Below are positions 5,475 to 40,736 of a stretch of DNA of 40,810 nt, piece by piece. Below the pieces are notes generated by a model, which ran no database searches, was not told where the DNA came from, and saw only the letters and a list, made by a program, of their open reading frames with translations. This DNA comes from a virus. The DNA lies in UHGV virus genome UHGV-0204427. The stretch is one strand, 5' to 3'. The stretch's first letter is position 1. Each line of letters opens with the position of its first letter. A program made the position numbers and the translations under genes.

Positions 5475-5494
5475 CATGACACTTTTCTTTTGTC
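5462..5494 (+). terminator. hairpin GTGTCATG-gataa-CATGACAC followed by TTTTCTTTTGTC, overlapping the prp stop; candidate partial terminator/attenuator
   Basis: 8-bp perfect stem plus T-rich tract, read from the sequence. Confidence 0.4.
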
Positions 5495-5557
5495 TAAAAC
5501 GTGATGACAGGAAAAGCATCGGAAACAGTTCACGCACTTAAAACGGAGGAATAAAAA

Positions 5558-8837: not shown

Positions 8838-8842
8838 AAAGA

Positions 8843-9358
8843 ATGAGATTAAAGGAATTAATGGATGGTATCACCCCGAAGCCAGATTACGAAGGTTGGG
8901 TAACCAATGACGACATGGTATTTGCCATTGACACGGCCAATACTTCGAACACTGAGACGGAGCCGGGAGATTACGCTGTCGTGCAGATGGGGATTGAAGG
9001 TTTGGATTCTCAGCTGAATCCCGTAACCCAGGATAAACAGTACATCCGTGCTGGGCAATCCACTATGCGGACAGGAACCCAGAGAAGCTTTGCCGTAACC
9101 GGAGACCGATACATTGGCGATGAAGCCCAGGATTATATTTTAAGCCACAAAATGAAATATGGAACCGGGAATGCTGTAATTACCAATTATGTGTATTTTG
9201 ACATCCTGACAGGAAAGGGAGAGAAGGGTCAGGTGTCCGTGATTGTCAACAGCGATGGCTCCGGTAATTCTGGGGAAAGCGCGGCCATTGATGTTGAGTT
9301 CAAGAAGGTTGGTAATACGCCGGCTGAGTATACGTACGTAGCACCCGCGGGAGTATAG
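8843..9358 (+). CDS. major tail protein (TP901-1/Phage_tail_2-like)
   Basis: 171 aa. Position before the chaperone pair and the tape measure. Ig-like C-terminal flavour. Confidence 0.6.
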   Translation: MRLKELMDGITPKPDYEGWVTNDDMVFAIDTANTSNTETEPGDYAVVQMGIEGLDSQLNPVTQDKQYIRAGQSTMRTGTQRSFAVTGDRYIGDEAQDYILSHKMKYGTGNAVITNYVYFDILTGKGEKGQVSVIVNSDGSGNSGESAAIDVEFKKVGNTPAEYTYVAPAGV

Positions 9359-21340: not shown

Positions 21341-21856
21341 TTGAATATTCGTGCTACAGCGTTATCAAGAGTATCGATAAGAGAGTTGACGACAGAGGTT
21401 AGAAAAATTTGTGGGCTGCAGGAGCAGTTGTATTTTCCAATAGTAGAATTCATTGAGTGGGTCTTAGGCGACCCCAATAATGATTTCGATTATGAAATAG
21501 TCCCGATATCTGAGATGAAAGATACATATGGAACAACAAATACCGCAAGTAATATTATGCGAATAAGGGAAGATGTATATGAAGGTGCCGTTAAAGGAAA
21601 CGCAAGAGATAGATTCACTCTGTGCCATGAGTTGGGGCATTTCTTATTGCATCAGCCTAAATTGATAAGTTATGCAAGAGGTAATGTCCCGGTATACTGT
21701 CAGCCAGAATGGCAAGCCAACACATTTGCAGCAGAACTGATGGCGCCTTATCATTTAGTGAAAAACATGTCGGCAAATGAAATTGCACAGAAATGCGGAA
21801 TGTCATTGACTGCAGCAAATATTCAATATAAAACGTATCATAAGTTTGATGTTTAG
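21341..21856 (+). CDS. ImmA/IrrE-family zinc metallopeptidase (COG2856)
   Basis: HEXXH in 'LCHELGHFLLH'. Typical size of 171 aa. Directly downstream of the XRE partner. Confidence 0.75.
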   Translation: MNIRATALSRVSIRELTTEVRKICGLQEQLYFPIVEFIEWVLGDPNNDFDYEIVPISEMKDTYGTTNTASNIMRIREDVYEGAVKGNARDRFTLCHELGHFLLHQPKLISYARGNVPVYCQPEWQANTFAAELMAPYHLVKNMSANEIAQKCGMSLTAANIQYKTYHKFDV

Positions 21857-22506: not shown

Positions 22507-23874
22507 TTATAGCTGCTTTAGCTTGATATTCACATTATCATCATCAATTATGATGCGGTCTATAATCATAGTCAGGCAGGCCCTTTTTTCATCCAAGCTT
22601 CCTGCATCAGAAAGCGACATCAAGGTATCTCTCGCGGTTATCATTTCAGCAAGAGTTGTTACCGGCACATTTTTGGGTTTTGATATATTCAGTAGTGCTT
22701 CCTTCTCTTTATTAAGCGCATCCATTTTTTCCTGTATGGTTTCGATTGGGATTCCGCTGACTTGATACAGGTCTATCAGTTTTCCAATCTGCTTATCTAT
22801 CTCATTTAGGCGGATTGAATAATCTGTGACCGGGACCGGAACAGGGTGTCCACTCTTTAATTTAGAAAAGTCTAAACGCATTATGTAATCTAACACCAGT
22901 CTGTCTAATTCCTCTATCTTCCATTTTTTATTCTTGCAGTTGGGGTCAACAATGTACTTTTTATCTCCCTTGGTACGACTATAACAAGAATAATTACCAT
23001 GCTCACCGTGGAACCGTGCCCCACACTTACCACAATAGACGAGGCTTGAAAGAAGGGTGCTCGCCTTAAACGGAGACCGCTTGAAGGTATCAGAGGCCCT
23101 CCTGGAGCTGTTAAACAGGTCCTGTACCTGCCGGAATGTTTCTTCGGATATGATTGGTTGATGATTGCCTTGATAGGCTACCCCCTTAAACTTTACTTTT
23201 CCTATATACAGTTCGTTTTTAAGGACATTCCGGACTAAGACCTCACTGCTCCATCCACCATATTTTTGTTGCATATACTGCCAACAGTTGTGTATGGAAT
23301 ACCCCTTTAAAAACCGATTATACAAATCCTTGACCTGTATGGCCTCATAGTCATTTATTATGAGCTCCCCGTCAATATAGTCATAGCCGGTTGGTGCGTT
23401 GCCACCCCCATGAAAATATCCATTCTTGGCTCTGCCGATGCGTCCCATGGTAAAACGCTCCGTAATCTGGTCTTTCTCCAGCTGGGCAAAGACCGACAGT
23501 ATTCCAATCATGGCCCGGCCAAATGGGGTGGATGTATCAAAATTCTCATTCACAGAAACAAAATCCACATTCTTGGCCAGAAAACAATCCTCAATCAACA
23601 TGAGAGTATCCTTCTGGCTTCTGGATAAGCGGTCAAGCTTGTAAACAATGACAGAATCTATCAATCCTTTGTCGATGTCTTGGAGCATCTGCTGCAGGGC
23701 AGGCCTATTAACGTTTCCGCCGGAATAGCCGCCGTCGGTATATATCTTGACTATCTGAATATCTTTTGCTTTGCAGTATGCCTTCAAACGGTCAGTCTGT
23801 TCCTCTATACTATAGTTTTCTAACTGATTGTCCGTAGATACACGGACATAACATGCGCCTTTAATCATATTCAT
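22507..23874 (-). CDS. large serine recombinase (phage integrase type: resolvase catalytic domain + recombinase domain + zinc ribbon + coiled coil); start possibly the 3rd codon ATG at 23868
   Basis: 'YVRVSTDNQ' catalytic Ser motif. 'SRSQKDTL'. Cys pairs 'CGKCGARF…C'. 455 aa. Confidence 0.9.
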   Translation of the reverse strand: MNMIKGACYVRVSTDNQLENYSIEEQTDRLKAYCKAKDIQIVKIYTDGGYSGGNVNRPALQQMLQDIDKGLIDSVIVYKLDRLSRSQKDTLMLIEDCFLAKNVDFVSVNENFDTSTPFGRAMIGILSVFAQLEKDQITERFTMGRIGRAKNGYFHGGGNAPTGYDYIDGELIINDYEAIQVKDLYNRFLKGYSIHNCWQYMQQKYGGWSSEVLVRNVLKNELYIGKVKFKGVAYQGNHQPIISEETFRQVQDLFNSSRRASDTFKRSPFKASTLLSSLVYCGKCGARFHGEHGNYSCYSRTKGDKKYIVDPNCKNKKWKIEELDRLVLDYIMRLDFSKLKSGHPVPVPVTDYSIRLNEIDKQIGKLIDLYQVSGIPIETIQEKMDALNKEKEALLNISKPKNVPVTTLAEMITARDTLMSLSDAGSLDEKRACLTMIIDRIIIDDDNVNIKLKQL

Positions 23875-25644: not shown

Positions 25645-25854
25645 ATGTTACTTATTTTATTGTCTGTCCTGGTTTCAACGATTACCGCAGCCATCGTCAC
25701 GATTAAGATAACGGCCGCGGTAAAAAGAGAACTAATGACCTACGTCGAAGAAATGTGTGACCTGAATATTGAACAATCACAAAAAATAAAAAACTATGCT
25801 CTGAAAACGGTTGAAATGCTTGTTCGCAATATCAATCAAGACAAGCCTGTATAA
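25645..25854 (+). CDS. 69-aa small membrane protein
   Basis: Hydrophobic N-terminus 'LLILLSVLVSTITAAIVTI'. RBS GAGGTGAG. Confidence 0.4.
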   Translation: MLLILLSVLVSTITAAIVTIKITAAVKRELMTYVEEMCDLNIEQSQKIKNYALKTVEMLVRNINQDKPV

Positions 25855-26590
25855 GGGCTGTACCGAAAGGCGTTAATCCACATATTTTTCCAACAATTTC
25901 AGAATGAAGATATTTCCCCATTTTGATACGTTCTTCTTCGCACTGTTTATAGAAATCTGAATTTTTAAATGGAGAGTCATCAGCGGGGTGAACGAGAGCG
26001 TCATCATCAAATGCAAGTATGCCTAACCGCATCAGTGATGAAAGTGAAAAAGATATATACCTTGCTTCGTGCTGGTTCGGATAAGTATCAAAAGTATAGG
26101 GAACTTTGTTATAAAAGTCATTCTCGCTATTATTGAAATATGTGTATGTAATCAATCGTTCTGGTTTGTTGCTGACATAGTATTTTAAAATTTTAGCATC
26201 ATAAGGGCTCATTTGTTTTAGTGTCTCTGAGAAAGATGGATGTATGAGTTCCTTATAGTCACTATGGCATGAACGTGCTATTAGGTTAGCAAACAGATTT
26301 CTAAGTTCTTCGGAATTGATGCAAGAATCTACATTATCTAATGCAAGCATTATTGTTTGATAATCAGGTTCTATAAGCTTTTCAGATGGAATTTGTTCTA
26401 TACAGAGTTTTAATCGCGCCTCCAATTCAATTAAGCCGTATTTTTCATAGAGACGCCTTTTCTCAGCTTTATAGGATATTGAGCCAAACTTAAGATAGAT
26501 GGCGTCTTTGATGAGAGTTCCAATAGACATTGCTGGTTCGTTAGTAAGGTTTTTAATTGCATTATCAACACAGTTAGGCATGAGTTCCAT
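25832..26590 (-). CDS. Abi-alpha-like (DUF4393) abortive-infection/exclusion candidate, ~252 aa
   Basis: 'IKNLTNEPAMSIGTLI…RNLFANLIARSCHSDYKELIHPSFSETLKQMSPYDAKILKY' recalls the DUF4393 core. Minus-strand gene in the lysogeny region. Confidence 0.5.
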   Translation of the reverse strand: MELMPNCVDNAIKNLTNEPAMSIGTLIKDAIYLKFGSISYKAEKRRLYEKYGLIELEARLKLCIEQIPSEKLIEPDYQTIMLALDNVDSCINSEELRNLFANLIARSCHSDYKELIHPSFSETLKQMSPYDAKILKYYVSNKPERLITYTYFNNSENDFYNKVPYTFDTYPNQHEARYISFSLSSLMRLGILAFDDDALVHPADDSPFKNSDFYKQCEEERIKMGKYLHSEIVGKICGLTPFGTALIQACLD

Positions 26591-26729
26591 AATAATATTC
26601 CCTTCACTAAATACTCGGCGCTGCAACGCCTGTAAGTACAGTATAGGTCAGGGGGAGGAAAAAGACAAGACGGACAACGTAAGAAGTACAACCAGTACCA
26701 CATACAATTTACCAGAGAGGGGTGGTGAT

Positions 26730-27607: not shown

Positions 27608-28058
27608 TATTACAGGACTTGATACAATCGCACAGGCAATCAATAACCTGGCGCAGGCGTTAGGAAAGGGAGGCGTGACTGCTTCCTTTAGTGAATCTAC
27701 TCCTGCCGGCCCGCAGTTAACGCAGATGGCTGGGAACTATCAGAACCCAGGACCGGCAGCTTCGGGGCCACAGCAGTCAGGTCTTCCTGGAGCTGCTACA
27801 GGACAGCCAGGCATGATGCAATATCAACAGCCCTTCACAGGACCGGCCGGACAGGGAGCACTGCCAACGACAGCCACCACACAATCCTATACCCAGGACC
27901 AGATAGCCATTGCACTGACTGGACTCATCGACCAGGGCAAGCGGGACTATGTGATGCAGATATTGGGACAGTTTGGCGCAATGTCCCTCATGCAAGTGCC
28001 TGTTGAACGGTATCCGGAACTTGTGACGCAGTTGAGAGGGGCAGGTGCAAACATCTAA
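27588..28058 (+). CDS. hypothetical protein with Q/P/G-rich low-complexity centre
   Basis: RBS GGAGG. 'GPQLTQMAGNYQNPGPAASGPQQSGLPGAATGQPGMMQYQQPFTGPAGQG'. Confidence 0.45.
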   Translation: MTNMNINITGLDTIAQAINNLAQALGKGGVTASFSESTPAGPQLTQMAGNYQNPGPAASGPQQSGLPGAATGQPGMMQYQQPFTGPAGQGALPTTATTQSYTQDQIAIALTGLIDQGKRDYVMQILGQFGAMSLMQVPVERYPELVTQLRGAGANI

Positions 28059-29281
28059 TGGCAGAAGAGAGGAAACACGCGTTGTTGTCGGCATCCAGTG
28101 CCAAACGGTGGATAAACTGCCCGCCATCTGCGAGACTGTCCGAAGCATTTCCAGAATCAACATCTGACTACGCGGAAGAAGGTACGCTGGCTCACGATAT
28201 CTGTGAGTTGAAGCTGCGGAAATTATTCATTGAGCCGGGGATGCCAGAAAAGACATTTAAAACTGCACACAATCAATTAAAGAAGCACGGGCAGTATGAC
28301 CCTGAGATGGAGCGCTATACAGACGAATATGTGGACTACATACAGAAGATAGCCTACAGCTATCCTGTGCCACCTAAGATTGTGATTGAAAAGGAAGTCC
28401 ATTACGGGCATGTCGCCCGGGATGGCTACGGCTTCTCTGACTGTATCATTCTGAGCGGTACAGACTGCCATGTGGTGGATTTCAAGTATGGTAAGGGCAT
28501 TACAGTCAGTGCGGAGGAAAATCCGCAGATGATGCTGTATGCGGTCGGGGCTATAGCTGAGTACGGAATCGTATTTCCTGTAGAACGGGTCATCCTGCAT
28601 ATTGTGCAGCCGCGGACAAAGAACTTTTCACGATGGGAACTTTCAGCCAGTCAGCTCCAAACCTGGTCAGAGCAGACCGTAAAGCCTGCAGCGGAACTGG
28701 CCTGGGAAGGCAAGGGAGATTTTAGGCAGGGCTCCTGGTGTGATGACTGCTTCTGCCCTGCCGCGGGAACCTGCCGGTTCCGGATGGAGGAAAACATGGC
28801 GGCCCTGCAGAAACATACGGACCCAATTACAGGGAAGATAATACCCGCAGAGCTCCTAACCAATGGTGAAATTGGCTCAATCCTTCCCTTTCTTGAATTC
28901 GCAGCACCCTGGATCAAGAAGGTCCGCGCGGCCGCCCTCGACAAACTGCTGGCGGATGAGGATGTCCCAGGGTGGAAATTGGTGGAGGGCAGGAGCAACC
29001 GGGAGCTCCCTGACCCAGATAAGGCATATGCCGCGCTGGTGGAGGCCGGATATAAGAAGGCCCTGTTTTATGAGCGGATTCCGGTAACTCTGACTGAGGC
29101 GGAGAAACTGATCAATAAGGATGACTTCAACACAATCCTTATGCCATTTATTGTGAAACCAAAAGGAAAACCCACGCTTGCACCTAAGGGGGACAAACGT
29201 CCGCCATACCAAAAAGACACTACCCCGCAGGAGGATTTCGGTGGGGAGAATCAATATAAGGAGGAAGAAAAAACATGTTAG
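28058..29281 (+). CDS. DUF2800-family PD-(D/E)XK (Cas4-like) nuclease with C-terminal Cys cluster
   Basis: N-terminus 'LSASSAKRWINCPPSARL' is the DUF2800 signature. 'CDDCFCPAAGTC' Cys cluster. Confidence 0.7.
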   Translation: MAEERKHALLSASSAKRWINCPPSARLSEAFPESTSDYAEEGTLAHDICELKLRKLFIEPGMPEKTFKTAHNQLKKHGQYDPEMERYTDEYVDYIQKIAYSYPVPPKIVIEKEVHYGHVARDGYGFSDCIILSGTDCHVVDFKYGKGITVSAEENPQMMLYAVGAIAEYGIVFPVERVILHIVQPRTKNFSRWELSASQLQTWSEQTVKPAAELAWEGKGDFRQGSWCDDCFCPAAGTCRFRMEENMAALQKHTDPITGKIIPAELLTNGEIGSILPFLEFAAPWIKKVRAAALDKLLADEDVPGWKLVEGRSNRELPDPDKAYAALVEAGYKKALFYERIPVTLTEAEKLINKDDFNTILMPFIVKPKGKPTLAPKGDKRPPYQKDTTPQEDFGGENQYKEEEKTC

Positions 29282-30045
29282 TTGGAAGATTCAGGGCAAG
29301 TTACGCCCATGTGTTTGAGCCGTCTACACCGCCAGGTGGTGGGGAGGCCAAGTATCAGATAACCATGCTCATCCCAAAATCCGATGTGAATACATACAAT
29401 GCCGTTGTAGCGGAAATGAACCGGGCCCTGCAGGAAGGACTACAGAAAACGTTTGGCGGACAGATGCCGGCAAGACCCTCCATGCCCCTGTATGACGGTG
29501 ACGGGACCAAACAGAACGGAGAGCCTTGGGGAGAGGAGTGCCGGGGCCATTGGGTACTGCGTGCATCAAGCAGGACCAGGCCTTCCGTGGTGGATATCAA
29601 CATCCAGCCTATCCTTGACCCAAATGCATTTTATTCCGGCTGCTATGCCCGGGCAACGGTCAATTTTTATCCATACAATACAAATGGTAACCGTGGAGTG
29701 GGATGCGGACTTAACAACATACAGAAGATTGCCGACGGGGACCCCCTGTCCGGCAGGACGACAGCAGAAGAAGACTTCGGCGGGTCCAATGCGTATGCAG
29801 GTTCCGCGGCAGCTACGAACGGGTATGGGCAGCCTGCGTATCAGCCGCCGTCCTACCAGGCTCAGGCTTATCAGCAGCCTGCCGGCGGTTTTGGGGGCGC
29901 GCCGGCCAGCCCTCCCGGGATGATGCCGGGATATACGGCGGCACCCATAGGGTACGCCCCTCCTGCAGGCGGGGCGCCACAGCAGCAGGCGATTGACCCG
30001 GTGACGGGAAGGCCGCTGCCAGCCGGGGGAGTGATGGGGATTTGA
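29275..30045 (+). CDS. DUF2815-family phage protein (putative ssDNA-binding), Q/P/Y-rich tail
   Basis: N-terminus 'RASYAHVFEPSTPPGGGEAKYQITMLIPKSD' is typical of DUF2815. Always paired with DUF2800 and PolA. Confidence 0.65.
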   Translation: MLVGRFRASYAHVFEPSTPPGGGEAKYQITMLIPKSDVNTYNAVVAEMNRALQEGLQKTFGGQMPARPSMPLYDGDGTKQNGEPWGEECRGHWVLRASSRTRPSVVDINIQPILDPNAFYSGCYARATVNFYPYNTNGNRGVGCGLNNIQKIADGDPLSGRTTAEEDFGGSNAYAGSAAATNGYGQPAYQPPSYQAQAYQQPAGGFGGAPASPPGMMPGYTAAPIGYAPPAGGAPQQQAIDPVTGRPLPAGGVMGI

Positions 30046-32006
30046 GGACCCTAAGTATTGACACAGAAACATATAGCAGTGTAGATATCCGGAAATCAGG
30101 GCTGTACAAATATGTACAGTCCCCTGATTTTGAAATCCTTCTGTTTGCCTATGCTTATGACGATAATCCGGTACAGGTCGTAGACCTGGCACGGGGGGAG
30201 AAAATCCCGTATTACACAGTCATGGATCTGCACAGGCCCGAAGTCGTGAAGACGGCATTCAATGCAGCATTTGAATATTACTGCCTCAGTAAGTTCTTTG
30301 AGACACATCTGGAGCAATGGCAATGCACCATGGTCCATGCATGGTACTGCGGATATGCAGGAGGGCTGGATGCCATCGGCAGGGCCATGGAATTTCCCGA
30401 AGACAAGCGTAAACTGTCCACAGGCAAGTCACTGATTAAATATTTCTGTACCCCATGCGCCCGTACGAAACGGAACGGTGGGCGTACCAGGAATCTTCCG
30501 GGACATGCTCCGGATAAGTGGAAGCTGTTTAAGGAATACTGCGGACAGGATGTGGTGACCGAACGGGAAATTAAGAACCGGCTGGCGGAGTATCCGGTGC
30601 CTGCATTCGAGCATCAATTATGGGTGATTGACCAGGCGATTAATATTGGCGGAGTGGCTCTTGATACGGCCCTGATAAATGGTGCGCTGGCAATCAGTGC
30701 CCAAATGACAGAAGAACTGACTGAGAAAGCCCGGAATATCACGGGGCTGGATAACCCAAACAGTGTAGCACAGCTTAAACAATGGGTCATAAACAATGCA
30801 GACGTGGAGATAGAGAGTCTGAACAAGCAGACGGTTGCTGACCTCCTGTCCCAGGAATCCGGAACCGATGAGGTACAGGCTATGCTTCGGATACGTCAGG
30901 AGATGGCAAAGACCTCGGTGAAGAAATACCAGGCCATGCAGGACGCGCTGTGTGATGACGGCCGGGTGCGCGGGCTCCTGCAGTTTTATGGGGCCTGCCG
31001 TACAGGGAGATGGGCCGGAAGGCTTGTGCAGGTGCAGAACCTGCCACGAAACTATATTGACAGCCTGGATACGGCCAGGGCGCTTGTACAGAAACAAAAA
31101 ATAGATGCCCTCCGGGTTATATATGGGAATGTGCCTGACACGCTCTCACAGCTCATCCGGACGGCATTTATACCTGGAGACGGATACACCTTCGCCGTGG
31201 CTGATTTCTCGGCCATAGAGGCGCGTGTGATTGCCTGGCTGGCGGGAGAGGAATGGCGATTGGATGTGTTCCGGACACACGGGAAGATTTATGAAGCCTC
31301 GGCCAGTACCATGTTCGGGGTGCCGATAGAGAAAATAAAGAAAGGGAACCCGGAATACGCCCTGCGTAGTAAGGGAAAGGTTGCTGAGCTGGCCTTGGGA
31401 TACCAAGGTGCGGCTGGGGCCCTTATCCAAATGGGCGCCCTGCGGATGGGCCTTCATGAAGAAGAACTGCCGGACATTGTACAGAGGTGGCGGGCATCAA
31501 ACAAACGGATTGTAGACCTGTGGTACAGCATAGAGCAACACGCGGCGGAATGCGTGGAATATGGTGTGATATCATCCCTGCCGAACGGTATTTCGTTTTC
31601 AAGGGACACGGACCGGATGATGGTTACCCTGCCAAGCGGCCGTAAGCTGTTCTACCTTAAACCGCAGATGATTCCAGATGAGAGGAATTACAAGCGGATC
31701 TATTTTATGGGGCAGAACCAAAAGAGCCATAAATGGGATTTGCTCCCGACCTACGGCGGCAAACTCACGGAGAATATCGTACAGGCCGTGGCAAGAGACT
31801 GCCTGGCCAATGCCATGGTGAACCTGCATACGGCAGGGTACCGGATTAACTTCCATATCCATGACGAGGTGATACTGGAAATTCCCAAGGGCGGCAGGCA
31901 GAGTCTGGAGGAGGCAATAAGCCTCATGTGCAGGCCTCCGGCATGGGCTGAGGGGCTTCCTCTGAATGCGGATGGATTCACAGGAGATTATTACAAAAAG
32001 GAGTAG
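30042..32006 (+). CDS. DNA polymerase I family A (3'-5' exo + pol), phage type
   Basis: Exo I 'LSIDTETYS'. Motif A 'VADFSAIEARV'. Motif B 'RSKGKVAELALGYQG'. Motif C 'HIHDEV'. Confidence 0.85.
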   Translation: MRTLSIDTETYSSVDIRKSGLYKYVQSPDFEILLFAYAYDDNPVQVVDLARGEKIPYYTVMDLHRPEVVKTAFNAAFEYYCLSKFFETHLEQWQCTMVHAWYCGYAGGLDAIGRAMEFPEDKRKLSTGKSLIKYFCTPCARTKRNGGRTRNLPGHAPDKWKLFKEYCGQDVVTEREIKNRLAEYPVPAFEHQLWVIDQAINIGGVALDTALINGALAISAQMTEELTEKARNITGLDNPNSVAQLKQWVINNADVEIESLNKQTVADLLSQESGTDEVQAMLRIRQEMAKTSVKKYQAMQDALCDDGRVRGLLQFYGACRTGRWAGRLVQVQNLPRNYIDSLDTARALVQKQKIDALRVIYGNVPDTLSQLIRTAFIPGDGYTFAVADFSAIEARVIAWLAGEEWRLDVFRTHGKIYEASASTMFGVPIEKIKKGNPEYALRSKGKVAELALGYQGAAGALIQMGALRMGLHEEELPDIVQRWRASNKRIVDLWYSIEQHAAECVEYGVISSLPNGISFSRDTDRMMVTLPSGRKLFYLKPQMIPDERNYKRIYFMGQNQKSHKWDLLPTYGGKLTENIVQAVARDCLANAMVNLHTAGYRINFHIHDEVILEIPKGGRQSLEEAISLMCRPPAWAEGLPLNADGFTGDYYKKE

Positions 32007-32010
32007 GCTT

Positions 32011-34473
32011 ATGTTCGTGAATGACAGGAAAATCAGAATATCAGTAGGTACGAGCAGGAAAGCCACGTCCTGGCACCGGCAGGAGCTCCTGTGGTCGGAT
32101 TTCGTCCAACGGATATCCCGGCCGGAACGCACGGGTGAAACCTTTGCGGAATATAAAGGGCTTACGAAAGCGCGTCAGGATGAATTAAAGGATGTCGGTG
32201 GCTTTGTCGGCGGGGAACTGAACGGGGAGGCCCGCAGGAATGAGAACGCCGGTGACAGGCACCTGGTGACACTGGATGCGGACAACATCATTCCGGGAGG
32301 GACACAGGCAGTTCTGAATGCTGTGGAGGCACTGGGGTGTTCCTATGCTGTATATTCCACAAGGAAACATGAGGGCGCGGCCCCCAGGCTGCGTATCATC
32401 CTTCCGTTGGACGTGGCATGCACGGCGGACGAATATGAGCCTATAGCCCGGAAAGTGGCGGCTTTCCTGGGGATACAGATATTTGACCCGACCACGTTCG
32501 AGCCGGTCCGGCTCATGTACTGGCCAAGCTGCAGCGCGGACAGCGAGTATGTATTTCTTTATGGGGATAAGCCATTCCTGTCAAAGGACGGGGTTCTGAG
32601 GCTCTACCAAAACTGGCGCAACGTGGCGGAATGGCCTGAGGTACCGGGGGCCGCAAAGCTCCGCGACCGGTCGGCAAAGAAGCAGGGTAACCCGCTTGAA
32701 AAGCAGGGGGTGGTAGGCGCATTCTGCCAGACGTACGATGTGACGGAAGCCATCGCACAGTTTATACCGGATGCGTACATCCCCTGCGGGGAGGGCCGGT
32801 ATACATACAGTGAGGGCTCAACCATGGGCGGCGCCGTATTATATGACGGCGGGAACTTCCTGTACAGCCACCATGCCACGGATCCGGCCAGCGGGAAACT
32901 CTGCAACGCGTTCGACCTGGTCCGCCTCCATAAATTCAACGAGGAGGATTATGACGCGAAACCGGAAACCCCAGTGACACAGCTGCCATCATTTAAGGCC
33001 ATGTGTGAATTTGCCCTGCAGCAGGAGCCTGTATCCAAGGCAATGGCCCTGGAGCGGTACAGGAAGGCTCAGGAGGACTTTTCACAGCCGGTCCAGGGGG
33101 AGACAGAGGGAGTCCCGGATTTTGAATGGATGGGAGAGCTTAAGTGCAGCTCACGGACAGGGCAGCCCCTCAATACCATCGACAATGTCCTCATTATACT
33201 GAACCATGACCCAAAACTGAACGGGCGGTTCTGGCATGATGAGTTCGCGAACAGGGCGGTTGTTGGACAGGCCATGCCCTGGGAGGCGCCAAAGGACAAT
33301 TACAAGCTGAGAGCCTGGGCGGACGAGGATGACTCAGGGCTCAGGCATTATATAGAGAAAGTATACGGGATAACCGGGAAAGAGAGGATATATGATGCAA
33401 TGGCTGTATATGCGACAAACCATAAGCAGCATAAGATAAGGGAATATCTGACCGGGCTGGTCTGGGATGGTATTCCGCGTATTGATACCCTGCTGACTGA
33501 TTATTTTGGGGCGGAGGACAGTACCTATACAAGGGAAGCCATGCGCAAGACATTGACGGCAGCCGTGGCCAGGGCAATGGTTCCGGGAATTAAGTTTGAC
33601 AGCATGCTGATACTGTCAGGAGCCCAGGGAGTGGGAAAGAGTACCTTTTTCCGCTTCCTGGGAAGGGACTGGTATTCTGACAGCCTGGCAACGTTTGAGG
33701 GCAAAGACGCCGCGGAGCTCATACAGGGATATTGGATTATAGAAGCCGGGGAACTGGCCGGTATGAATAAGTCAGAAATGAACACAGTCAAACAGTTCAT
33801 GAGTAAAACAGAAGATGTCTACAGGGAGCCGTACGGAAGGCGGACGAAGCCATTTCCGCGTTCCTGCATCATCGTAGGAACAACCAATGACAAAGAGTTT
33901 TTGAAAGACCAGACAGGCAACAGGCGGTTCTGGCCGATTGACCTTGGAAAAATCCCCAGCAGAAAAAATGTGTTTGGGCAGCTGCCAGGTGAGGTGGACC
34001 AGATTTGGGCGGAGGCCTTTATGAGATGGCAGTGCGGCGAGAAGCTGTTTCTGGAGGGAGACGTGGCGAAGGAAGCGGTACGACAGCAGGAGGAGCATAA
34101 GGAAAGCAATCCTAAGGAGGGTATCATCCGGGAGTTCTTGGGCAGGAAGATACCGGCAGACTGGAGCCGGAAGGACTTGGCAGCCAGGAGAGAGTTCTGG
34201 AACTTTGCGGGGCGGGATTATGATGAGAACCTGCTTTTGCCGCGTGACAGGGTATGCGCTGCAGAAATATGGTGCGAATGTTTTTATGGGGATTTGAAGA
34301 TGATGAAGAAGTCGGATGCCCATGAAATCAACAGCATACTATCCGGTCTGTCTGGATGGGAACGGAGCTCCGGAGCCATTCCATTCGGCCCATACTATGG
34401 AAAACAGAGGGGATATGTTCTAAGCCAGGAGACAAGATTAGATTGTTGCCCGGCAACATTCCAAAAATTGTAA
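32011..34473 (+). CDS. primase-helicase (VirE / P4-type primase C-terminal ATPase)
   Basis: 820 aa. Walker A 'SGAQGVGKST'. RBS AAGGAG 8 nt before ATG 32011. Confidence 0.75.
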   Translation: MFVNDRKIRISVGTSRKATSWHRQELLWSDFVQRISRPERTGETFAEYKGLTKARQDELKDVGGFVGGELNGEARRNENAGDRHLVTLDADNIIPGGTQAVLNAVEALGCSYAVYSTRKHEGAAPRLRIILPLDVACTADEYEPIARKVAAFLGIQIFDPTTFEPVRLMYWPSCSADSEYVFLYGDKPFLSKDGVLRLYQNWRNVAEWPEVPGAAKLRDRSAKKQGNPLEKQGVVGAFCQTYDVTEAIAQFIPDAYIPCGEGRYTYSEGSTMGGAVLYDGGNFLYSHHATDPASGKLCNAFDLVRLHKFNEEDYDAKPETPVTQLPSFKAMCEFALQQEPVSKAMALERYRKAQEDFSQPVQGETEGVPDFEWMGELKCSSRTGQPLNTIDNVLIILNHDPKLNGRFWHDEFANRAVVGQAMPWEAPKDNYKLRAWADEDDSGLRHYIEKVYGITGKERIYDAMAVYATNHKQHKIREYLTGLVWDGIPRIDTLLTDYFGAEDSTYTREAMRKTLTAAVARAMVPGIKFDSMLILSGAQGVGKSTFFRFLGRDWYSDSLATFEGKDAAELIQGYWIIEAGELAGMNKSEMNTVKQFMSKTEDVYREPYGRRTKPFPRSCIIVGTTNDKEFLKDQTGNRRFWPIDLGKIPSRKNVFGQLPGEVDQIWAEAFMRWQCGEKLFLEGDVAKEAVRQQEEHKESNPKEGIIREFLGRKIPADWSRKDLAARREFWNFAGRDYDENLLLPRDRVCAAEIWCECFYGDLKMMKKSDAHEINSILSGLSGWERSSGAIPFGPYYGKQRGYVLSQETRLDCCPATFQKL

Positions 34474-34680
34474 AAGGCAACAATGGGAACAGGAGGCAAC
34501 AATCCAATGTTGCTGTAAAAACCCTTGAAAATCAAGGGTTAAACCCTTAATCAACAGTGGCAACATTCTTATATATAAAAATATAAAATAAAGGGTAATG
34601 TATATATAATACCCCTGCGCCCGCATACGCGTATATATATATATAGAATGCTGTAGCCCGTTGTTGCCAAGGGGTAAAAA
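34443..34680. repeat. origin-like region: iterons GGCAACA(A/T)T direct at 34476, 34495, 34559 and inverted TGTTGCC at 34444, 34661; palindromes CCCTTGAaaaTCAAGGG and AAGGGTTaAACCCTT; AT-rich tract with (TA)7
   Basis: Read directly. Sits between the primase-helicase stop and the VRR-NUC start. Confidence 0.55.
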
Positions 34681-34692
34681 GGAGGCGTCAAA

Positions 34693-35049
34693 ATGCTTGA
34701 AAAAGAACTTGAAAAGAAATTCACGGAAGCGGTGAAGAAATGTGGCGGTATCGCATTCAAGTTTGTCTCCCCCGGTAATGCCGGCGTGCCGGACAGGCTG
34801 GTGATACTCCCCGGAGGCCGGATCGGGTTCGTGGAGCTTAAACAGGAGGGGAAGAAGGCAACAGTACTGCAGAGTAAAAGGATACATGCCCTAAGGGAAC
34901 TGGGGTGCGCAGCTTGTGTGCTTGACCGGGAGCCGGATATAGGCAGGGCAATCATGTACATAGCGTCAGATGCAGGAAAGGATCCGGCCTGGCAGGACTG
35001 GAAACTGAAAGAATTTCTTGAAGAATCAAGAAAGCGGGAGCAGCCATGA
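34693..35049 (+). CDS. VRR-NUC domain nuclease
   Basis: 'GVPDRLVILPGGRIGFVELKQEGKKATVLQ' is the VRR-NUC core. ATGA overlap with the SNF2 gene. Confidence 0.7.
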   Translation: MLEKELEKKFTEAVKKCGGIAFKFVSPGNAGVPDRLVILPGGRIGFVELKQEGKKATVLQSKRIHALRELGCAACVLDREPDIGRAIMYIASDAGKDPAWQDWKLKEFLEESRKREQP

Positions 35050-36419
35050 AGTTTGTACCGCATGATTACCAGAGGTACTGCATCAACCGTATGATATCAG
35101 ATCCTGCCCTGGGCCTGTTTCTTGACATGGGACTCGGTAAGACCGTGATTACCCTGACCGCGGTCAATGACCTTCGGTATAACCGTTTTGAGGTCGGTAA
35201 GTCATTAGTAATAGCACCCAAGAAAGTGGCGGAGGATACCTGGATCCGAGAGGCCGGGAAGTGGGACCATCTGAAACTGCTTCGGATTATCCCCGTGCTT
35301 GGCAGCAGAGAGAAGCGGATAAAGGCCCTTAATACCCCGGGAGATGTGTATGTGCTGAGCCGGGATAATGTGCAATGGCTTGTGGACCATTACCGCAACG
35401 CCTGGCCGTTTGACACGGTAATCATAGATGAGCTGTCCAGTTTCAAGAACCCGCAAGCCAAGCGTTTCAAGAGCCTGTGCCTGGTGAGGAACCACATACG
35501 CCGGATTTATGGGCTGACCGGTACACCGGCGCCAAACGGCCTTCTGGACCTGTGGTCCCAGATATACCTGCTTGACCAGGGACGGCGGCTGGGGACAAGG
35601 ATAGGGCAGTACCGGGAAGAATATTTCTCGCCAGCATCCAGAAACCGGGACACCATCTTTTCATACGCGCCGCTTCCAGGGGCAGACCGGATTATCCAGC
35701 AGCGGATATCCGACATCTGCATCAGCCTGCAGGCAAAGGATTACCTGCAGCTTCCAGAGCGAATTGACAATGTAATACATGTGCGTCTTAATCCCAGGGA
35801 GCAGGCAGCATATGAGAAGTTTGAGCGTGAGATGCTTCTGGAAGTGGACGAGGCCACACTGGATGCCGGGTCAGCAGCGGTGCTTTCCGGTAAGCTCCTG
35901 CAGTTCTGTAATGGGGCCGTATATGACAGTGACAAGCATGCAGTGGAGGTCCATGGCGAGAAGCTGGAGGTATTCAAGGAGATTGTGGAAGGCAGCCAGG
36001 GGAAACCGATACTGGTATTCTACAACTTCCAGCATGACAAGTCCCGTATTATCAAGTGCCTTCCGAAGGGACTTAGGATAGCGGAGCTTAAGGGGCCGGG
36101 CGTAATCAGCCAGTGGAATGAGAGGAAGATAGATGTACTCCTGGCGCATCCGGCCAGTGCCGCTTACGGACTCAACCTCCAGGCGGGTGGAAACATCATC
36201 GTATGGTTTGGCCTTAACTGGTCCCTGGAACTGTATCAACAGGCAAACGCCAGGCTGCACAGGCAGGGACAGACGGATAATGTTATTATCCACCACTTGA
36301 TTGTATCCGGGGGGATGGATGAGGATGTCATGGCAGCGCTGCAGAATAAGCAGGTTACGCAGGATTCCCTGCTTGCGGCCCTTAAGGCAAGGATAGCAAA
36401 AGTGAAAGGGGAAACGTGA
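35046..36419 (+). CDS. SNF2-family DEAD/DEAH helicase
   Basis: Motif I 'DMGLGKT'. Motif II 'IIDELS'. Motif VI 'QANARLHRQGQ'. Confidence 0.85.
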   Translation: MKFVPHDYQRYCINRMISDPALGLFLDMGLGKTVITLTAVNDLRYNRFEVGKSLVIAPKKVAEDTWIREAGKWDHLKLLRIIPVLGSREKRIKALNTPGDVYVLSRDNVQWLVDHYRNAWPFDTVIIDELSSFKNPQAKRFKSLCLVRNHIRRIYGLTGTPAPNGLLDLWSQIYLLDQGRRLGTRIGQYREEYFSPASRNRDTIFSYAPLPGADRIIQQRISDICISLQAKDYLQLPERIDNVIHVRLNPREQAAYEKFEREMLLEVDEATLDAGSAAVLSGKLLQFCNGAVYDSDKHAVEVHGEKLEVFKEIVEGSQGKPILVFYNFQHDKSRIIKCLPKGLRIAELKGPGVISQWNERKIDVLLAHPASAAYGLNLQAGGNIIVWFGLNWSLELYQQANARLHRQGQTDNVIIHHLIVSGGMDEDVMAALQNKQVTQDSLLAALKARIAKVKGET

Positions 36420-38074
36420 TGGAGGAAGTTAAGAAAACAGGATTGACCTTTATAGATACCAGGCGGCTGGCCAATATATCCTACAAGGATATCAAAAATG
36501 GTTTTGTAGGCTTCGGCTATTACCTGAAAATCATCCGGGATGAAAAGCTGTGGCAGGGACAAGGTTATGACAGCTTTAACGAGTTTTTGGGTGATGAATA
36601 CGGCAAGGACAAGTCTTGGGCGTCCAGGTGTATCAACCTGTATGATAAATTCGGAATCCCGGTAGAGCCAGGGGAACTGCCGAGGCTGGAAGATGCATAT
36701 GAGTCGTACAATGTCAGCCAGCTGATAGAGATGATACCTATGCAGGAGGAGTTGCAGGAGCAGGTCACCCCGGATATGTCGGTCAAAGCCATCCGGGCAC
36801 TGAAGCCAAGAAAAGAGAAGAAAGTTGCGACCGTCGCAACCCCGGAGCAAGAACCAGAGCCCCACCAGGAAGCCCAGACGGAGCCAGAGCCGGAACCGCC
36901 CCGTCCGGAAAAGTCTGGGAAGTGCATCCACCGGCCAGAATTTGACTGCACCCTGGAGGAGGCCCATAAGCTCATCCCGGGAACCGGGGAGGACTGCAGC
37001 CGGGTGTGCTGCTGGGAATGCGTCAGGCGCGGTGACTGTGAGTTGGAATGTTATAGTTCGCAGCGGCGCCCGGAGCATCTGGAACCCCCAAAGACAAAGC
37101 CGGATTGTCTGCCGCTGGATACCGCGGATACGCACCGGGAGGAAACGGCCATCCCTTCCCAGAAGGAATGTGTTCTGGACTTCTATCAGCATCACATGTC
37201 CAAGCCGTGTGCGCAGGCCGCCAATGACGGGAACGTGAAACTGCTGAGGCAGGAGCTGATAATCAATCACGGAGAACCCCATAACAGCGGGTCAACGGAG
37301 TACGGCTTTTATCAATGCGGCCCGGAACGGATTCATTTTCAGGATAATATGTGCGAGACATTTCTGAGCTTGACCTGGGGGAAGTACGTAAAGGAATTAC
37401 TCAGCCTCTTGGGGAGTGCTGAGGATGAGGCATCAGAACATGAAAACGATGTTCCAGGTATGCCAGAATCCCAGGATACCGTGATTGATGGTGAATTCAC
37501 GGAGATTTCAGAAACGGAGGAGGACATCCGGGCCCCGGAGGAACCCATGACCGAGCTGCAGATTGCCCAGGATGAACTGGAGCGTGCCAAAAAGCTGCTT
37601 AATGATGGGCTAAAATGTGATGTGGATGAAAATGACATACATATCCGCCGGCTGAAAATAAAGGTTTGCGCCCTGGCCAGCTATGTGTGCGATTTGGATG
37701 ACATCGTGAACCCTCCGCCGAAGCCAGAGCAGCCGGAACTGCCGGTGCTTAAGAATAATGACCAACGGGCTGCCTTCGTGGATGCATATGAGACGTGGCC
37801 GTTATGGATTGAGACGAAACAGACCGGGGAACGGTACTACCGGTATGACCTGGAGGACGGCACCAGCATGGTGGTGAAGGTATACCACGCAAGGATATTC
37901 GATGGATATGCGTCAGGAAGCTATGAGGCCAAATATCATGATGGTTACGGCCGGCATGAGTACTATCTGCTGCGGGATGGGAAGTTCTTCCGGGATTGCG
38001 ATACGAACCGGTCATTGCTGATTGAGAAACTGAAAGAGATTCAGAAGGTGAAAAAAGGCTGTAACCAGAATTAG
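36416..38074 (+). CDS. 552-aa hypothetical: N-terminal globular domain, acidic/Pro-Glu linker, Cys-rich segment (…CIHRPEFDC…CSRVCCWECVRRGDCELEC…), C-terminal domain
   Basis: GTG/ATG start 36416/36419 with RBS GAAAGGGG. No confident family assignment. Confidence 0.5.
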   Translation: MMEEVKKTGLTFIDTRRLANISYKDIKNGFVGFGYYLKIIRDEKLWQGQGYDSFNEFLGDEYGKDKSWASRCINLYDKFGIPVEPGELPRLEDAYESYNVSQLIEMIPMQEELQEQVTPDMSVKAIRALKPRKEKKVATVATPEQEPEPHQEAQTEPEPEPPRPEKSGKCIHRPEFDCTLEEAHKLIPGTGEDCSRVCCWECVRRGDCELECYSSQRRPEHLEPPKTKPDCLPLDTADTHREETAIPSQKECVLDFYQHHMSKPCAQAANDGNVKLLRQELIINHGEPHNSGSTEYGFYQCGPERIHFQDNMCETFLSLTWGKYVKELLSLLGSAEDEASEHENDVPGMPESQDTVIDGEFTEISETEEDIRAPEEPMTELQIAQDELERAKKLLNDGLKCDVDENDIHIRRLKIKVCALASYVCDLDDIVNPPPKPEQPELPVLKNNDQRAAFVDAYETWPLWIETKQTGERYYRYDLEDGTSMVVKVYHARIFDGYASGSYEAKYHDGYGRHEYYLLRDGKFFRDCDTNRSLLIEKLKEIQKVKKGCNQN

Positions 38075-39245: not shown

Positions 39246-40271
39246 ATGATGGCAGAACAGGTGAATATAGATCGAGTAATCATGCAGGTAATGGATAATG
39301 TGACGCAGGTGGTTGAGGAACAGGAACGGCTGAATGAGGTCAAACAGATATTGTATATGTGCCTGTCCAGGTTTCAAATATTTGAGGAGGAAACAGCGCT
39401 TTCTGTGGACGTGGACCGCACGGTGGAGTACTTGAAACAATATCTTCTGCAGATGAAGTTGGATGGATGTACTGACGGGAGCATTCAGGGGTATAAGAAT
39501 AACATTAAGAACATGCTGAATTATATCAATAAGAATGTGACTGAGATTACATACCAGGACCTCAAGGGATACATGGCCTATGGGAAGCTGGTCAGAAAAT
39601 GGAAAGACAGGACTTACAACAGTCAGCTGATATCCATTCGTAGTTTTTTCTCATTCCTTTATGCGGAGGATATGCTTCCGGATAATCCGGCCAAGAAACT
39701 TAAGGAAACTAAGGTGGAATACCGGATAGGTCCCACACTGCAACCCGAGCAGCGAGAAATGGTTAGATGCGCATGTGCGGATGAGCTGGAGCTGGCAATA
39801 TGTGACATGTTATATGTGACAGGGATACGTGTGTCTGAGTTGTGCGGCATGAATCAGTCAGACGTTGACTTTAATCGTAAGACGGCAATCGTATATGGGA
39901 AGGGGCGTAAGGAACGCCAGGTATGCCTCAATGGACAGGTAGCCCTGCACCTTTGGAGATATCTTCAAAGTCGGAATGACGACAATCCAGCCTTATTTGT
40001 TTCCCCACATGGACAATGCAGGCGCATCGGGGCCCAGACGGTTAGGAATATCCTGAAACGAATTAAAGAGAGGGACGAAGAGTTGGCGGATGTCAAGGTC
40101 ACCCCGCATGTGTTCCGCCGTACTGTGGGAACCGATATGATTAACAAAGGGGCGCCGGCAGAGATAGTGAAGGAGGTACTGGGCCATGTCAAGATTGATA
40201 CAACGCTTAAGTGCTATGCAGCTATTAGTAAGGACACCGTGCGGCAGGCACATGCACGCTTTGTAGGATAG
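39246..40271 (+). CDS. tyrosine site-specific recombinase (XerC/D-phage integrase family) with N-terminal SAM-like domain
   Basis: 'TGIRVSELCG' (Arg I). 'HVFRRTVGTDM' (H-x-x-R). 'LGHVKIDTTLKCYAAIS' (His…Tyr nucleophile). Confidence 0.8.
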   Translation: MMAEQVNIDRVIMQVMDNVTQVVEEQERLNEVKQILYMCLSRFQIFEEETALSVDVDRTVEYLKQYLLQMKLDGCTDGSIQGYKNNIKNMLNYINKNVTEITYQDLKGYMAYGKLVRKWKDRTYNSQLISIRSFFSFLYAEDMLPDNPAKKLKETKVEYRIGPTLQPEQREMVRCACADELELAICDMLYVTGIRVSELCGMNQSDVDFNRKTAIVYGKGRKERQVCLNGQVALHLWRYLQSRNDDNPALFVSPHGQCRRIGAQTVRNILKRIKERDEELADVKVTPHVFRRTVGTDMINKGAPAEIVKEVLGHVKIDTTLKCYAAISKDTVRQAHARFVG

Positions 40272-40283: not shown

Positions 40284-40736
40284 ATGGCAGATAAGAGCAT
40301 ATTAAAACAATATGCAAGCATGATAAAAGAGGCAGAAGACGAAGAACGCAGAATACGGAATTTAGAAGCAGAAATTAGGTCTATGCGGCCGCTTGATAGA
40401 GAAGTTACAGATGTTGTGACAAGAGGAAAACGAGGAAAGAAACCACTCGGAACCTGTGTGATTCGTGGAGAGAACGACCATTCGGCCATCAATCGGAAAC
40501 GTGCCAGGCTTAGGGAGAGGAAAGCAAAAAAGGAGCTTCATGTATCCAGGATTGAAATGATGGTTGCCGATGCGGAAGAATATATTTACAGCATTGATGA
40601 TAGCGAATTAAGACGTATTACAGAATTTTACTGTATTGACAGAAAAAACTGGGATGAAGTAGCCGAAGCAATGGGAGAGGGGTATACTGCTGAGGCTTGT
40701 AAACAAAAATTTTCCAGATTTATGCGCGTCAAGTAA
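40284..40736 (+). CDS. putative late-gene transcriptional activator (ArpU/RinA-like, C-terminal sigma-70 region-4-like HTH)
   Basis: C-terminus 'LRRITEFYCIDRKNWDEVAEAMGEGYTAEACKQKF' is HTH-like. Position immediately before the late promoter and packaging genes. Confidence 0.45.
   Translation: MADKSILKQYASMIKEAEDEERRIRNLEAEIRSMRPLDREVTDVVTRGKRGKKPLGTCVIRGENDHSAINRKRARLRERKAKKELHVSRIEMMVADAEEYIYSIDDSELRRITEFYCIDRKNWDEVAEAMGEGYTAEACKQKFSRFMRVK

What the first reader, a model, noticed from the sequence alone, without database searches (positions are those of the whole stretch)
34440..34692. Putative replication origin: GGCAACA iterons in both orientations, nested palindromes and a (TA)n DNA-unwinding element right after the primase-helicase gene
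In the 250-nt non-coding stretch the heptamer GGCAACA or its complement TGTTGCC occurs at least six times. One pair forms the perfect inverted repeat TGTTGCC-c-GGCAACA at 34444-34458, overlapping the primase stop. Between the copies lie two overlapping perfect palindromes (CCCTTGAaaaTCAAGGG and AAGGGTTaAACCCTT) and a ~60-bp AT-rich tract ending in TACGCGTA(TA)7. This matches the iteron plus DUE organisation of phage and plasmid origins. Its position downstream of the initiator/primase gene fits an ori recognised by that protein.
Basis: seen in the sequence. Interest (0 to 1): 0.6.

Follow-up and report, generated by a model that had tools for sequence, protein, structure and literature searches.

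The report
Iteron replication origin after phage primase-helicase
The repeat-rich gap after this prophage's primase-helicase gene is very probably the phage's replication origin, built like the known origins of staphylococcal pathogenicity islands, so it is a well-supported but fairly ordinary find.

Summary
GGCAACA occurs 9 times in the 40.8-kb window, and 6 copies lie within 225 bp (34444-34668). None of 200,000 random placements matched that clustering. With one mismatch allowed there are 9 copies. The palindromes, the AT tract and TACGCG(TA)7 are all present, with small coordinate corrections.

The upstream 835-aa protein is a homologue of SaPI1 Rep1 (PDB 7PDS, E 5e-76). The match runs through the C-terminal domain that reads SaPI iterons. 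SaPI origins lie directly 3' of rep, with iterons in opposite orientations flanking an AT-rich centre.

About 100 of 116 related loci have a short word repeated 5-13 times at this position. These loci include the isolated phages phiFL4A and phiCT453A. The word differs by lineage, but the geometry is conserved: a left array, a spacer element, a tandem pair, a ~100-bp AT-rich core, inverted copies, then a VRR-NUC gene.

In a natural chimera (L030/L035) the iteron word travels with the helicase/C-terminal half, not with the primase domain.

Verdict: a new member of a known kind (SaPI/PICI-type self-loading helicase origin). Confidence is about 0.8 and interest is modest.

The parts
31966..34473 (+). 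Fused primase-helicase gene (835 aa, PriRep-like). It has an N-terminal primase region, a VapE-like SF3/AAA+ helicase domain (aa 495-712) and a C-terminal domain conserved up to aa 817 (nt 34416). The last 18 codons are a non-conserved tail that runs into the iterons.
   Evidence: Pfam VapE-like_dom E 2.5e-80 and PHROG 256/9765. PDB 7PDS (SaPI1 Rep1) E 5e-76 over aa 386-752. A profile of the last 230 aa aligns to Rep1 235-466 of 477, E 4e-47.
34444..34514 (.). Left iteron array of six copies of GGCAACA(A/T)T. Orientations are - + + + + -. Two copies are degenerate (GGGAACA 34485, AGCAACA 34508). The first two copies lie inside the last codons of the helicase gene.
   Evidence: The same left array appears in relatives with lineage-specific words.
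34517..34549 (.). Spacer element AAAAACCCTTGAaaaTCAAGGGTTaAACCCTT. It has an A-tract, a 9-bp perfect hairpin/palindrome (34520-34528 / 34532-34540) and an overlapping second palindrome (34534-34548).
   Evidence: I12, I13; -8.3 kcal/mol, z -4.7. The linear form AAAC[CG]...GGnTTT is enriched in spacers of 60 lineages (18 vs 0.3 expected). It is 23/26 identical to an element in the annotated Sfi21 origin.
34550..34567 (+). Tandem iteron pair ATCAACAGT-GGCAACATT, 9 nt start to start, abutting the AT-rich core.
   Evidence: A tandem ++ pair at 8-9 nt spacing is present in 48 of 49 loci with the full geometry.
34566..34613 (.). AT-rich tract (48 nt, 85% A+T), the candidate DNA-unwinding element. 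It contains the AT-richest 40-mer of the window and the imperfect palindrome GGGTAAT...ATACCC.
   Evidence: I5. The conserved skeleton TTCTT..TATA..ATAAAATA(A/G)AG..TATATA appears across lineages.
34612..34645 (.). G+C island CCCCTGCG-CCCGCA followed by TACGCG(TA)7. The island is the degenerate counterpart of the 2x ACGCCTAAT-like direct repeat seen in relatives. The (TA)n length varies among near-identical relatives.
   Evidence: Enrichment in 35 distinct cores versus shuffles: ACGCG 23 vs 1.3, CCTAAY 18 vs 1.5, adjacent 8-10-nt direct repeat 46% vs 2%.
34652..34668 (-). Right inverted iteron pair: GGCTACA (34652-34658, 1 mismatch) and GGCAACA (34662-34668), 10 nt apart. It mirrors the left tandem pair across an 86-nt core.
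   Evidence: The distance from the tandem pair to the inverted copy is 97-116 nt (median 102) in 49 loci.
34680..35049 (+). Ribosome-binding site AGGAGG (34680-34685) and the next gene (VRR-NUC-like nuclease, 34693-35049). This marks the right boundary of the origin region.
   Evidence: phrog_93 endonuclease. A VRR-NUC-like gene follows in 104 of 110 loci, a median 290 nt after the conserved CTD end.

Best explanation
Region 34444-34668 is the phage's replication origin. It is of the type used by the self-loading Rep helicases of staphylococcal pathogenicity islands.

Inferred mechanism, by homology:
1. The C-terminal (winged-helix) domain of the primase-helicase encoded just upstream binds the GGCAACA(A/T)T iterons.
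2. The left array and the spacer element concentrate and position the protein.
3. The tandem pair (34550-34567) and the inverted pair (34652-34668) place helicase assemblies in opposite orientation on either side of an 86-nt core.
4. The AT-rich tract and the (TA)7 run in that core melt.
5. The hexameric SF3 helicase loads itself onto single strands.
6. The N-terminal primase domain makes primers.
7. The phage PolA extends them, helped by the gp2.5-like ssDNA-binding protein encoded upstream.

Shown here: the repeats and their clustering, the homology of the protein to SaPI1 Rep1 including the CTD, the family-wide conservation of position and geometry, and the switching of the iteron word with the helicase/CTD lineage.

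Inferred only: binding, melting, loading and priming.
For: 1. Clustering. Six of 9 exact copies lie in 225 bp; 0 of 200,000 random placements match this. It is the most clustered 7-mer in the window. Nine copies exist at <=1 mismatch.
2. Homology. Window protein aa 386-752 match SaPI1 Rep1 (7PDS) at E 5e-76. The C-terminal 230-aa profile matches Rep1 235-466/477 at E 4e-47.
3. What is known of SaPI origins (PMC9371898). They have 6-12 iterons immediately downstream of rep and an AT-rich centre. Iterons on the two sides point in opposite directions. The CTD winged helix recognises them, and a PriRep5 CTD deletion was compared with wild type for binding to ori DNA.
4. Family conservation. In ~100 of 116 related loci, a 6-mer is repeated 5-13 times in the 330 nt after the conserved CTD end, against 0.05-0.4 expected. 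The words differ by lineage in a shared register NNNN-AC(A/T)-TT.
5. Conserved geometry. Tandem pair at 8-9 nt, then 97-116 nt to the inverted copy (49 loci). A VRR-NUC gene follows in 104/110 loci.
6. Natural chimera L030/L035. DNA is 99.5% identical up to about codon 350 of the gene. It is mostly unalignable, with one 240-nt stretch at 68% identity, across helicase, CTD and the left iterons, then 94% identical again. The iterons are TGATACA vs GGTAACC. The only other divergent segment nearby holds unrelated accessory genes.
7. Melting potential. The AT-richest 40-mer of the window lies in the core.
8. Precedent. Sfi21's annotated origin (phage-inhibitory element) has the same layout directly after its SF3 helicase gene and shares the spacer element.
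9. Isolated phages. phiFL4A and phiCT453A show the same layout.
Against: - There is no experimental or read-depth evidence for this phage.
- The right flank has only one exact iteron plus one 1-mismatch copy. SaPI origins are described as having at least two per side.
- GC skew is uninformative, because it is positive wherever genes are on the + strand.
- Covariation between the sequence of the last ~58 aa and the iteron word is only weakly detectable. It appears only among close pairs (0.67 vs 0.57 and 0.89 vs 0.71 identity).
- The CTD fold could not be modelled here (pLDDT 34).
- The conserved non-iteron motifs in the core have no assigned partner. They could reflect an additional or different function, such as a promoter.
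Confidence: 0.8

Rival explanations
1. The region is a transcriptional control region. The repeats would be operators for a lineage-specific regulator, and the AT-rich core would be a promoter for the downstream VRR-NUC/SNF2 genes, with no origin function.
For: The gap lies between two co-oriented genes, and the core contains TATAAT-like strings. CCTAAT/TATAAT-like direct repeats are conserved in relatives. SaPI-like origins and promoters can overlap, so a promoter could coexist with the origin.
Against: The sigma-70 scan finds no promoter-like site in 34474-34692 and no terminator after the helicase gene. In the L030/L035 chimera the only nearby gene segment that changes with the iterons is the helicase/CTD half. 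The array starts inside the helicase ORF, and its words follow the helicase lineage across ~100 loci. The upstream protein is homologous to a proven iteron-binding initiator.
Confidence: 0.07
2. The region is a structured RNA or single-stranded-DNA element, such as a primer or regulatory RNA, or a single-strand origin. On this view the inverted repeats matter as base-paired stems rather than as protein-binding sites.
For: The 219-nt gap folds at -67.5 kcal/mol, z = -5.3, as RNA. It forms a 12-nt outer stem between 34476-34487 and 34657-34668 plus the 9-bp hairpin.
Against: There is no Rfam match at gathering thresholds. Most copies are direct repeats, which stems do not need. Hairpin potential of the spacer is not conserved across lineages (median z -0.6). 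The low folding energy follows automatically from iterons in both orientations.
Confidence: 0.05
3. The region is a partition (centromere-like) or packaging site made of repeats bound by another phage protein.
For: Arrays of short repeats in both orientations also characterise plasmid-prophage centromeres and some pac sites.
Against: No ParA/ParB-type genes were found in the part of the window annotated. The phage encodes recombinases typical of integrating prophages. The terminase genes lie at the other end of the window, about 33 kb away (841-2202). The array is tied to the helicase gene in ~100 loci.
Confidence: 0.03

Closest known systems
SaPI/PICI replication origins with Rep or Pri-Rep self-loading helicases (SaPI1 Rep1, SaPI5 PriRep5, SaPIbov1; Ubeda 2007/2012 as summarised in Qiao et al. 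2022, PMC9371898)
   Same: The helicase is a sequence homologue of SaPI1 Rep1 through the CTD. It is fused to a primase, as in PriRep5. The origin lies immediately 3' of the gene, with short iterons in both orientations and an AT-rich centre flanked by oppositely oriented copies. The iteron word is lineage-specific.
   Different: The host element is a full temperate phage with its own PolA, SSB, exonuclease, VRR-NUC and SNF2 genes, not a satellite. The iterons are 7-9 nt rather than 5-6 nt. The layout is asymmetric, with a large left array and only 1-2 copies on the right. A conserved spacer element and conserved core motifs (2x ACGCCTAAT-like, ACGCG, (TA)n) are not part of the SaPI description available to me.
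Streptococcus thermophilus phage Sfi21 origin / phage-inhibitory (PER) element (Foley et al. 1998; annotated in NC_000872.1 at 34487-34784)
   Same: It is a ~300-bp non-coding element directly after an SF3 helicase gene. It has GTAAC-type iterons in both orientations, an AT-rich centre, and a spacer element 23/26 identical to window 34515-34540. Its function as an origin-like element is supported experimentally according to PMC6356513.
   Different: The adjacent helicase is of the DUF5906 + Pox_D5 type with a separate Prim-Pol gene. It shows no detectable similarity to the window protein's CTD. The Sfi21 element is more symmetric, with spacer-like elements on both sides.
Phage P4 alpha protein with ori and crr (from my own knowledge, not tested here)
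   Same: It is a fused primase / SF3 helicase / C-terminal origin-binding protein that recognises short repeated octamers.
   Different: P4 needs a second cis site (crr) several kb away. No second iteron cluster exists in this window. No sequence relation was tested.

Membership tests
SaPI/PICI-type Rep origin | The initiator is an SF3/AAA+ hexameric helicase homologous to SaPI Rep. | tested here: met
   7PDS (SaPI1 Rep1) E 5e-76, query aa 386-752 vs chain 15-385; Pfam VapE-like_dom E 2.5e-80.
SaPI/PICI-type Rep origin | The C-terminal domain carries the winged helix that recognises iterons. | tested here: met
   A profile of the last 230 aa aligns with Rep1 235-466 of 477, E 4e-47, so the sequence homology covers the CTD. 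The fold itself was not confirmed, because single-sequence AF2 failed (pLDDT 34).
SaPI/PICI-type Rep origin | Six to twelve short iterons lie immediately downstream of the rep ORF. | tested here: met
   There are 6 exact and 3 one-mismatch copies in 34444-34668, starting in the last codons of the gene. The words are 7-9 nt rather than 5-6 nt.
SaPI/PICI-type Rep origin | An AT-rich region sits near the centre, with at least two iterons on each side pointing in opposite directions. | tested here: inconclusive
   The tandem + pair (34550-34567) and the - pair (34652-34668) flank an 86-nt core that holds the AT-richest 40-mer of the window. However, one copy of each pair is degenerate and the array is strongly left-weighted.
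SaPI/PICI-type Rep origin | Rep binds its cognate iterons specifically and melts the origin without ATP, and the origin supports replication. | not testable with these tools
   Only indirect support exists. The iteron word changes with the helicase/CTD lineage and with the helicase/CTD half in the L030/L035 chimera.
Sfi21-type phage origin (PER element) | A non-coding, repeat-rich, AT-centred element lies directly after the replication helicase gene. | tested here: met
   Layout compared directly. The shared spacer element is 23/26 identical.
Sfi21-type phage origin (PER element) | The adjacent initiator is of the DUF5906/Pox_D5 (P4-alpha-like) family. | tested here: not met
   BLASTP gives no significant match. 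hhalign of the C-terminal profile (A1) against the Sfi21 helicase gives probability 0.3%. Pfam domains differ. A weak DUF5906 hit of the window protein (E 2e-8) shows only superfamily-level relatedness.

The most novel reading that the evidence does not exclude
The locus may exemplify a very large, so far unannotated class of phage origins attached to VapE-type primase-helicases.

The class would have a fixed architecture and a 'programmable' iteron word in the register NNNN-AC(A/T)-TT. It would also have invariant non-iteron parts: the AAACC..GGGTTT spacer element, a 2x ACGCCTAAT-like repeat and ACGCG-(TA)n.

The spacer element is also present in the Sfi21 origin, whose helicase is not detectably related in its CTD. 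That would mean the invariant parts are read by something other than the iteron-binding domain. Candidates are the primase start site, the helicase N-terminal tier, or a host factor common to Bacillota.

The many natural protein/word pairs could then be used to derive a winged-helix recognition code.
Probability: 0.3. Interest if true: 0.55.

Novelty: new member of a known kind. Interest (0 to 1): 0.38.

Why it matters
- It gives a precise, testable origin (about 230 bp) and a cognate initiator for a gut Bacillota prophage group that has no experimental replication data.
- The same rule appears to locate the origin in hundreds of phages and prophages where none is annotated. The rule is to look in the ~290 nt between the VapE-type primase-helicase and the VRR-NUC gene.
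- Such origins are useful for building shuttle or minimal replicons for poorly tractable anaerobes.
- They help in interpreting read-depth profiles.
- By analogy with Sfi21, they help explain origin-based interference between related phages.
- The natural diversity of iteron words paired with homologous C-terminal domains is a ready-made data set for studying protein-DNA specificity.

Tried and rejected
- Rfam at gathering thresholds on the whole window found no family.
- The sigma-70 promoter and intrinsic-terminator scan found nothing inside the gap.
- GC skew is positive along all + strand genes and shows no informative switch.
- Nucleotide search of the phage collection found only coding-sequence matches of 65-70% identity and none over the gap, so no close cultured relative exists.
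- NCBIfam had no hits for the three proteins tried.
- Single-sequence AlphaFold2 of the last 156 aa gave pLDDT 34. The model was unusable, so no fold search was run.
- Pairwise test of C-terminal identity against iteron identity gave only a weak signal, restricted to close pairs and confounded by phylogeny.
- The hypothesis that the nested palindromes are a conserved hairpin was rejected family-wide (median z -0.6). It was replaced by a conserved linear element.
- Homology between the Sfi21 helicase and the window CTD was not found.
- Ubeda 2007 and 2012 (the primary SaPI origin papers) are not held in the library. I relied on their summary in PMC9371898.
- A literature search for VapE + iterons + phage returned no papers.
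Full report
**Context.** The window looks like a complete temperate siphovirus-type genome.
- It carries terminase, SPP1-type portal and tape-measure genes, and a lysogeny block with a serine recombinase, an HTH repressor and Abi_alpha.
- A + strand replication module follows:
  - DUF2800/PD-(D/E)XK exonuclease (28058-29281)
  - gp2.5/Enc34-like ssDNA-binding protein (29275-30045)
  - family A DNA polymerase (30042-32006)
  - an 835-aa VapE-type primase-helicase (31966-34473)
  - a 219-nt gap
  - a VRR-NUC-like nuclease (34693-35049)
  - an SNF2 helicase (35046-36419)

**Observation.** The repeats are real and far from chance.
- GGCAACA occurs 9 times in 40,810 bp, and 6 copies fall in 34444-34668.
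- None of 200,000 random placements of 9 sites gives 6 within 225 bp. It is the most clustered 7-mer of the genome.
- Allowing one mismatch gives 9 copies; 2 of 20,000 placements reach that.

The resulting map is:

| Coordinates | Feature |
|---|---|
| 34444-34514 | Left array, orientations - + + + + - |
| 34550-34567 | Tandem + pair, 9 nt apart |
| 34566-34613 | 48-nt tract of 85% A+T, holding the AT-richest 40-mer of the window |
| 34612-34625 | G+C island |
| 34626-34645 | TACGCG(TA)7 |
| 34652-34668 | Inverted pair (GGCTACA and GGCAACA, 10 nt apart) |
| 34680-34685 | Ribosome-binding site |

- The inverted pair at 34444-34458 lies within the last ten codons, 13 nt before the stop. It does not overlap the stop.
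- The motif is TACGCG(TA)7.

**The upstream protein.**
- Against the PDB the only hit is 7PDS, at E 5e-76 (aa 386-752 vs residues 15-385).
- 7PDS is the Rep1 helicase of SaPI1 bound to DNA.
- A profile of the last 230 residues, built from 12 lineages, aligns to Rep1 235-466 of 477 at E 4e-47. This covers the C-terminal domain.
- Qiao et al. 2022 (PMC9371898) summarise the biology of these proteins:
  - They are self-loading SF3-like helicases that also act as initiators, through a winged helix in the CTD.
  - Six to twelve penta- or hexanucleotide iterons lie immediately downstream of rep.
  - An AT-rich region sits at the centre, with at least two iterons on each side pointing in opposite directions.
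  - Binding and melting need no ATP.
  - In SaPI5 the primase and Rep are fused (790 aa).
  - A CTD deletion was assayed against wild type for binding to ori DNA.
- The window protein has the same fused layout.

**Comparative evidence.** I collected 36 IMG/VR loci at 49-99% protein identity and 80 genome loci from diverse Bacillota at 46-62% CTD identity.
- In close relatives the GCAACA copies are kept, at 7-8 per locus.
- In more distant relatives the same position holds arrays of a different word. Examples are GTAAACA, GTCAAC(T/A), TGTTACA, TGAAACA, TGATACA, GGAACA, GTGAACA, GTCTACA, TCTAACA, GGTAACC and GGATAC.
- In about 100 of 116 loci the top non-AT 6-mer occurs 5-13 times in the 330 nt after the end of the conserved CTD, against 0.05-0.4 expected from the rest of the locus.
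- The words share the register NNNN-AC(A/T)-TT.
- The geometry is conserved. Arrays end in a tandem pair 8-9 nt apart (48 of 49 loci with the full pattern), followed 97-116 nt later (median 102) by inverted copies.
- A VRR-NUC-like gene follows in 104 of 110 loci, a median 290 nt after the CTD end.
- The isolated phages Enterococcus phiFL4A (GGATAC) and Clostridium phiCT453A (GGGTACA/GGGAACA) show the same layout. No origin is annotated in either record.

**A natural swap.**
- L030 and L035 are 99.5% identical in DNA up to about codon 350 of the primase-helicase.
- They are mostly unalignable, with one 240-nt stretch at 68% identity, through the helicase, the CTD and the left iterons.
- They are 94% identical again from just after the tandem pair into VRR-NUC and SNF2.
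- Their iterons are TGATACA and GGTAACC.
- The only other divergent block within the loci holds unrelated accessory genes.
- So the iteron word travels with the helicase/CTD half of the protein. It does not travel with the primase domain, PolA or the downstream genes.
- A statistical test of CTD identity against iteron identity gave only a weak signal, limited to close pairs.

**Conserved non-iteron parts.**
- An alignment of the core from 27 lineages gives this skeleton:
  - a T-rich/ATAAAATA(A/G)AG stretch
  - TATATA
  - two adjacent ACGCCTAAT-like repeats (degenerate in the window as CCCCTGCG-CCCGCA)
  - ACGCG
  - (TA)n
  - GCGTGAGAA
  - the inverted iteron
- These motifs are strongly enriched over shuffles.
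- The spacer's hairpin is strong only in the window's clade.
- Its linear form AAAC[CG]...GGnTTT is widespread, at 18 of 60 spacers against 0.3 expected.
- The annotated 302-bp origin/phage-inhibitory element of S. thermophilus phage Sfi21 lies directly after its helicase gene. It has GTAAC iterons and an AT-rich centre. Its element GTAAAACCCATTGAAAATAAAGGGTT is 23/26 identical to window 34515-34540.
- The Sfi21 helicase is of the DUF5906/Pox_D5 type and shows no detectable similarity to the window CTD.
- What reads these invariant parts is unexplained.

**Rivals.**
- *Promoter/operator region.* It cannot be excluded as a coexisting function, but the scans give it no support. It does not explain the link to the helicase lineage.
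- *Structured RNA.* The gap folds well as RNA (z -5.3), but this follows from inverted iterons. Most copies are direct repeats, the hairpin potential is not conserved, and Rfam finds nothing.
- *Partition or packaging site.* Nothing in the gene content fits either role.

**Verdict.**
- The element is best filed as a new member of the SaPI/PICI-type Rep origin class, carried by a full temperate phage. It also closely resembles the Sfi21 origin in layout.
- Confidence is about 0.8.
- All steps of the mechanism (binding, melting, loading, priming) are inferred from homology and comparative anatomy.

Noticed in passing
window 34417-34470; L024 4466-4595 and other loci: The primase-helicase ORF runs past the end of its conserved domain into the iteron array, so its C-terminal tail is translated iterons. 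The tail is 9-129 nt long depending on lineage. In L024 it reads ...VTFSENVTENVTKIDTFVTFDTFNVTT. The annotated stop codon therefore does not mark the left edge of the origin.
   Followed up: partly
window 34515-34540 and L119 (Sfi21) 10544-10569: A spacer element (GTAAAAACCCTTGAAAATCAAGGGTT) is 23/26 identical between this gut-Bacillota prophage and the experimentally studied Sfi21 origin. The adjacent helicases have no detectable CTD similarity. The binding partner is unknown.
   Followed up: partly
window 34612-34645; core alignment of L003-L115: The origin core holds a second, lineage-independent repeat class (two adjacent ACGCCTAAT-like units) followed by ACGCG and a (TA)n run. It may be a priming or loading site. 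(TA)n length varies among near-identical relatives.
   Followed up: partly
L030 vs L035, locus positions 5053-6563: This is a natural mosaic. The helicase, CTD and left iterons were exchanged as one cassette between otherwise 94-99.5% identical phages. A second replaced block (~8690-9340) holds an ORF with an HPD motif suggestive of a J-domain in L035 and an unidentified 247-aa ORF in L030; neither was searched.
   Followed up: partly
whole window: Eight palindromic hexamers are completely absent: TCTAGA, AGATCT, GTCGAC, GCTAGC, CTCGAG, CGATCG, CCTAGG and CACGTG, each expected 8-10 times. This suggests restriction avoidance. CTGCAG is 4.6-fold over-represented (39 copies).
   Followed up: no
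window 22507-23874 (-) and 39246-40271 (+): There are two recombinases in one phage genome. One is a large serine recombinase in the lysogeny block. The other is a tyrosine recombinase near the right end, next to a predicted transcriptional regulator (40284-40736).
   Followed up: no
window 25832-26626 (-) and 21341-21856 (+): An Abi_alpha (abortive infection) gene and an IrrE/M78 peptidase gene sit in the low-GC lysogeny region. They are candidate prophage-encoded defence and anti-repressor functions.
   Followed up: no
window 36416-38074 (+): A 552-aa protein downstream of SNF2 has no Pfam or NCBIfam match. Its only clear hit (E 4.9e-96) is phrog_15077, of unknown function.
   Followed up: no
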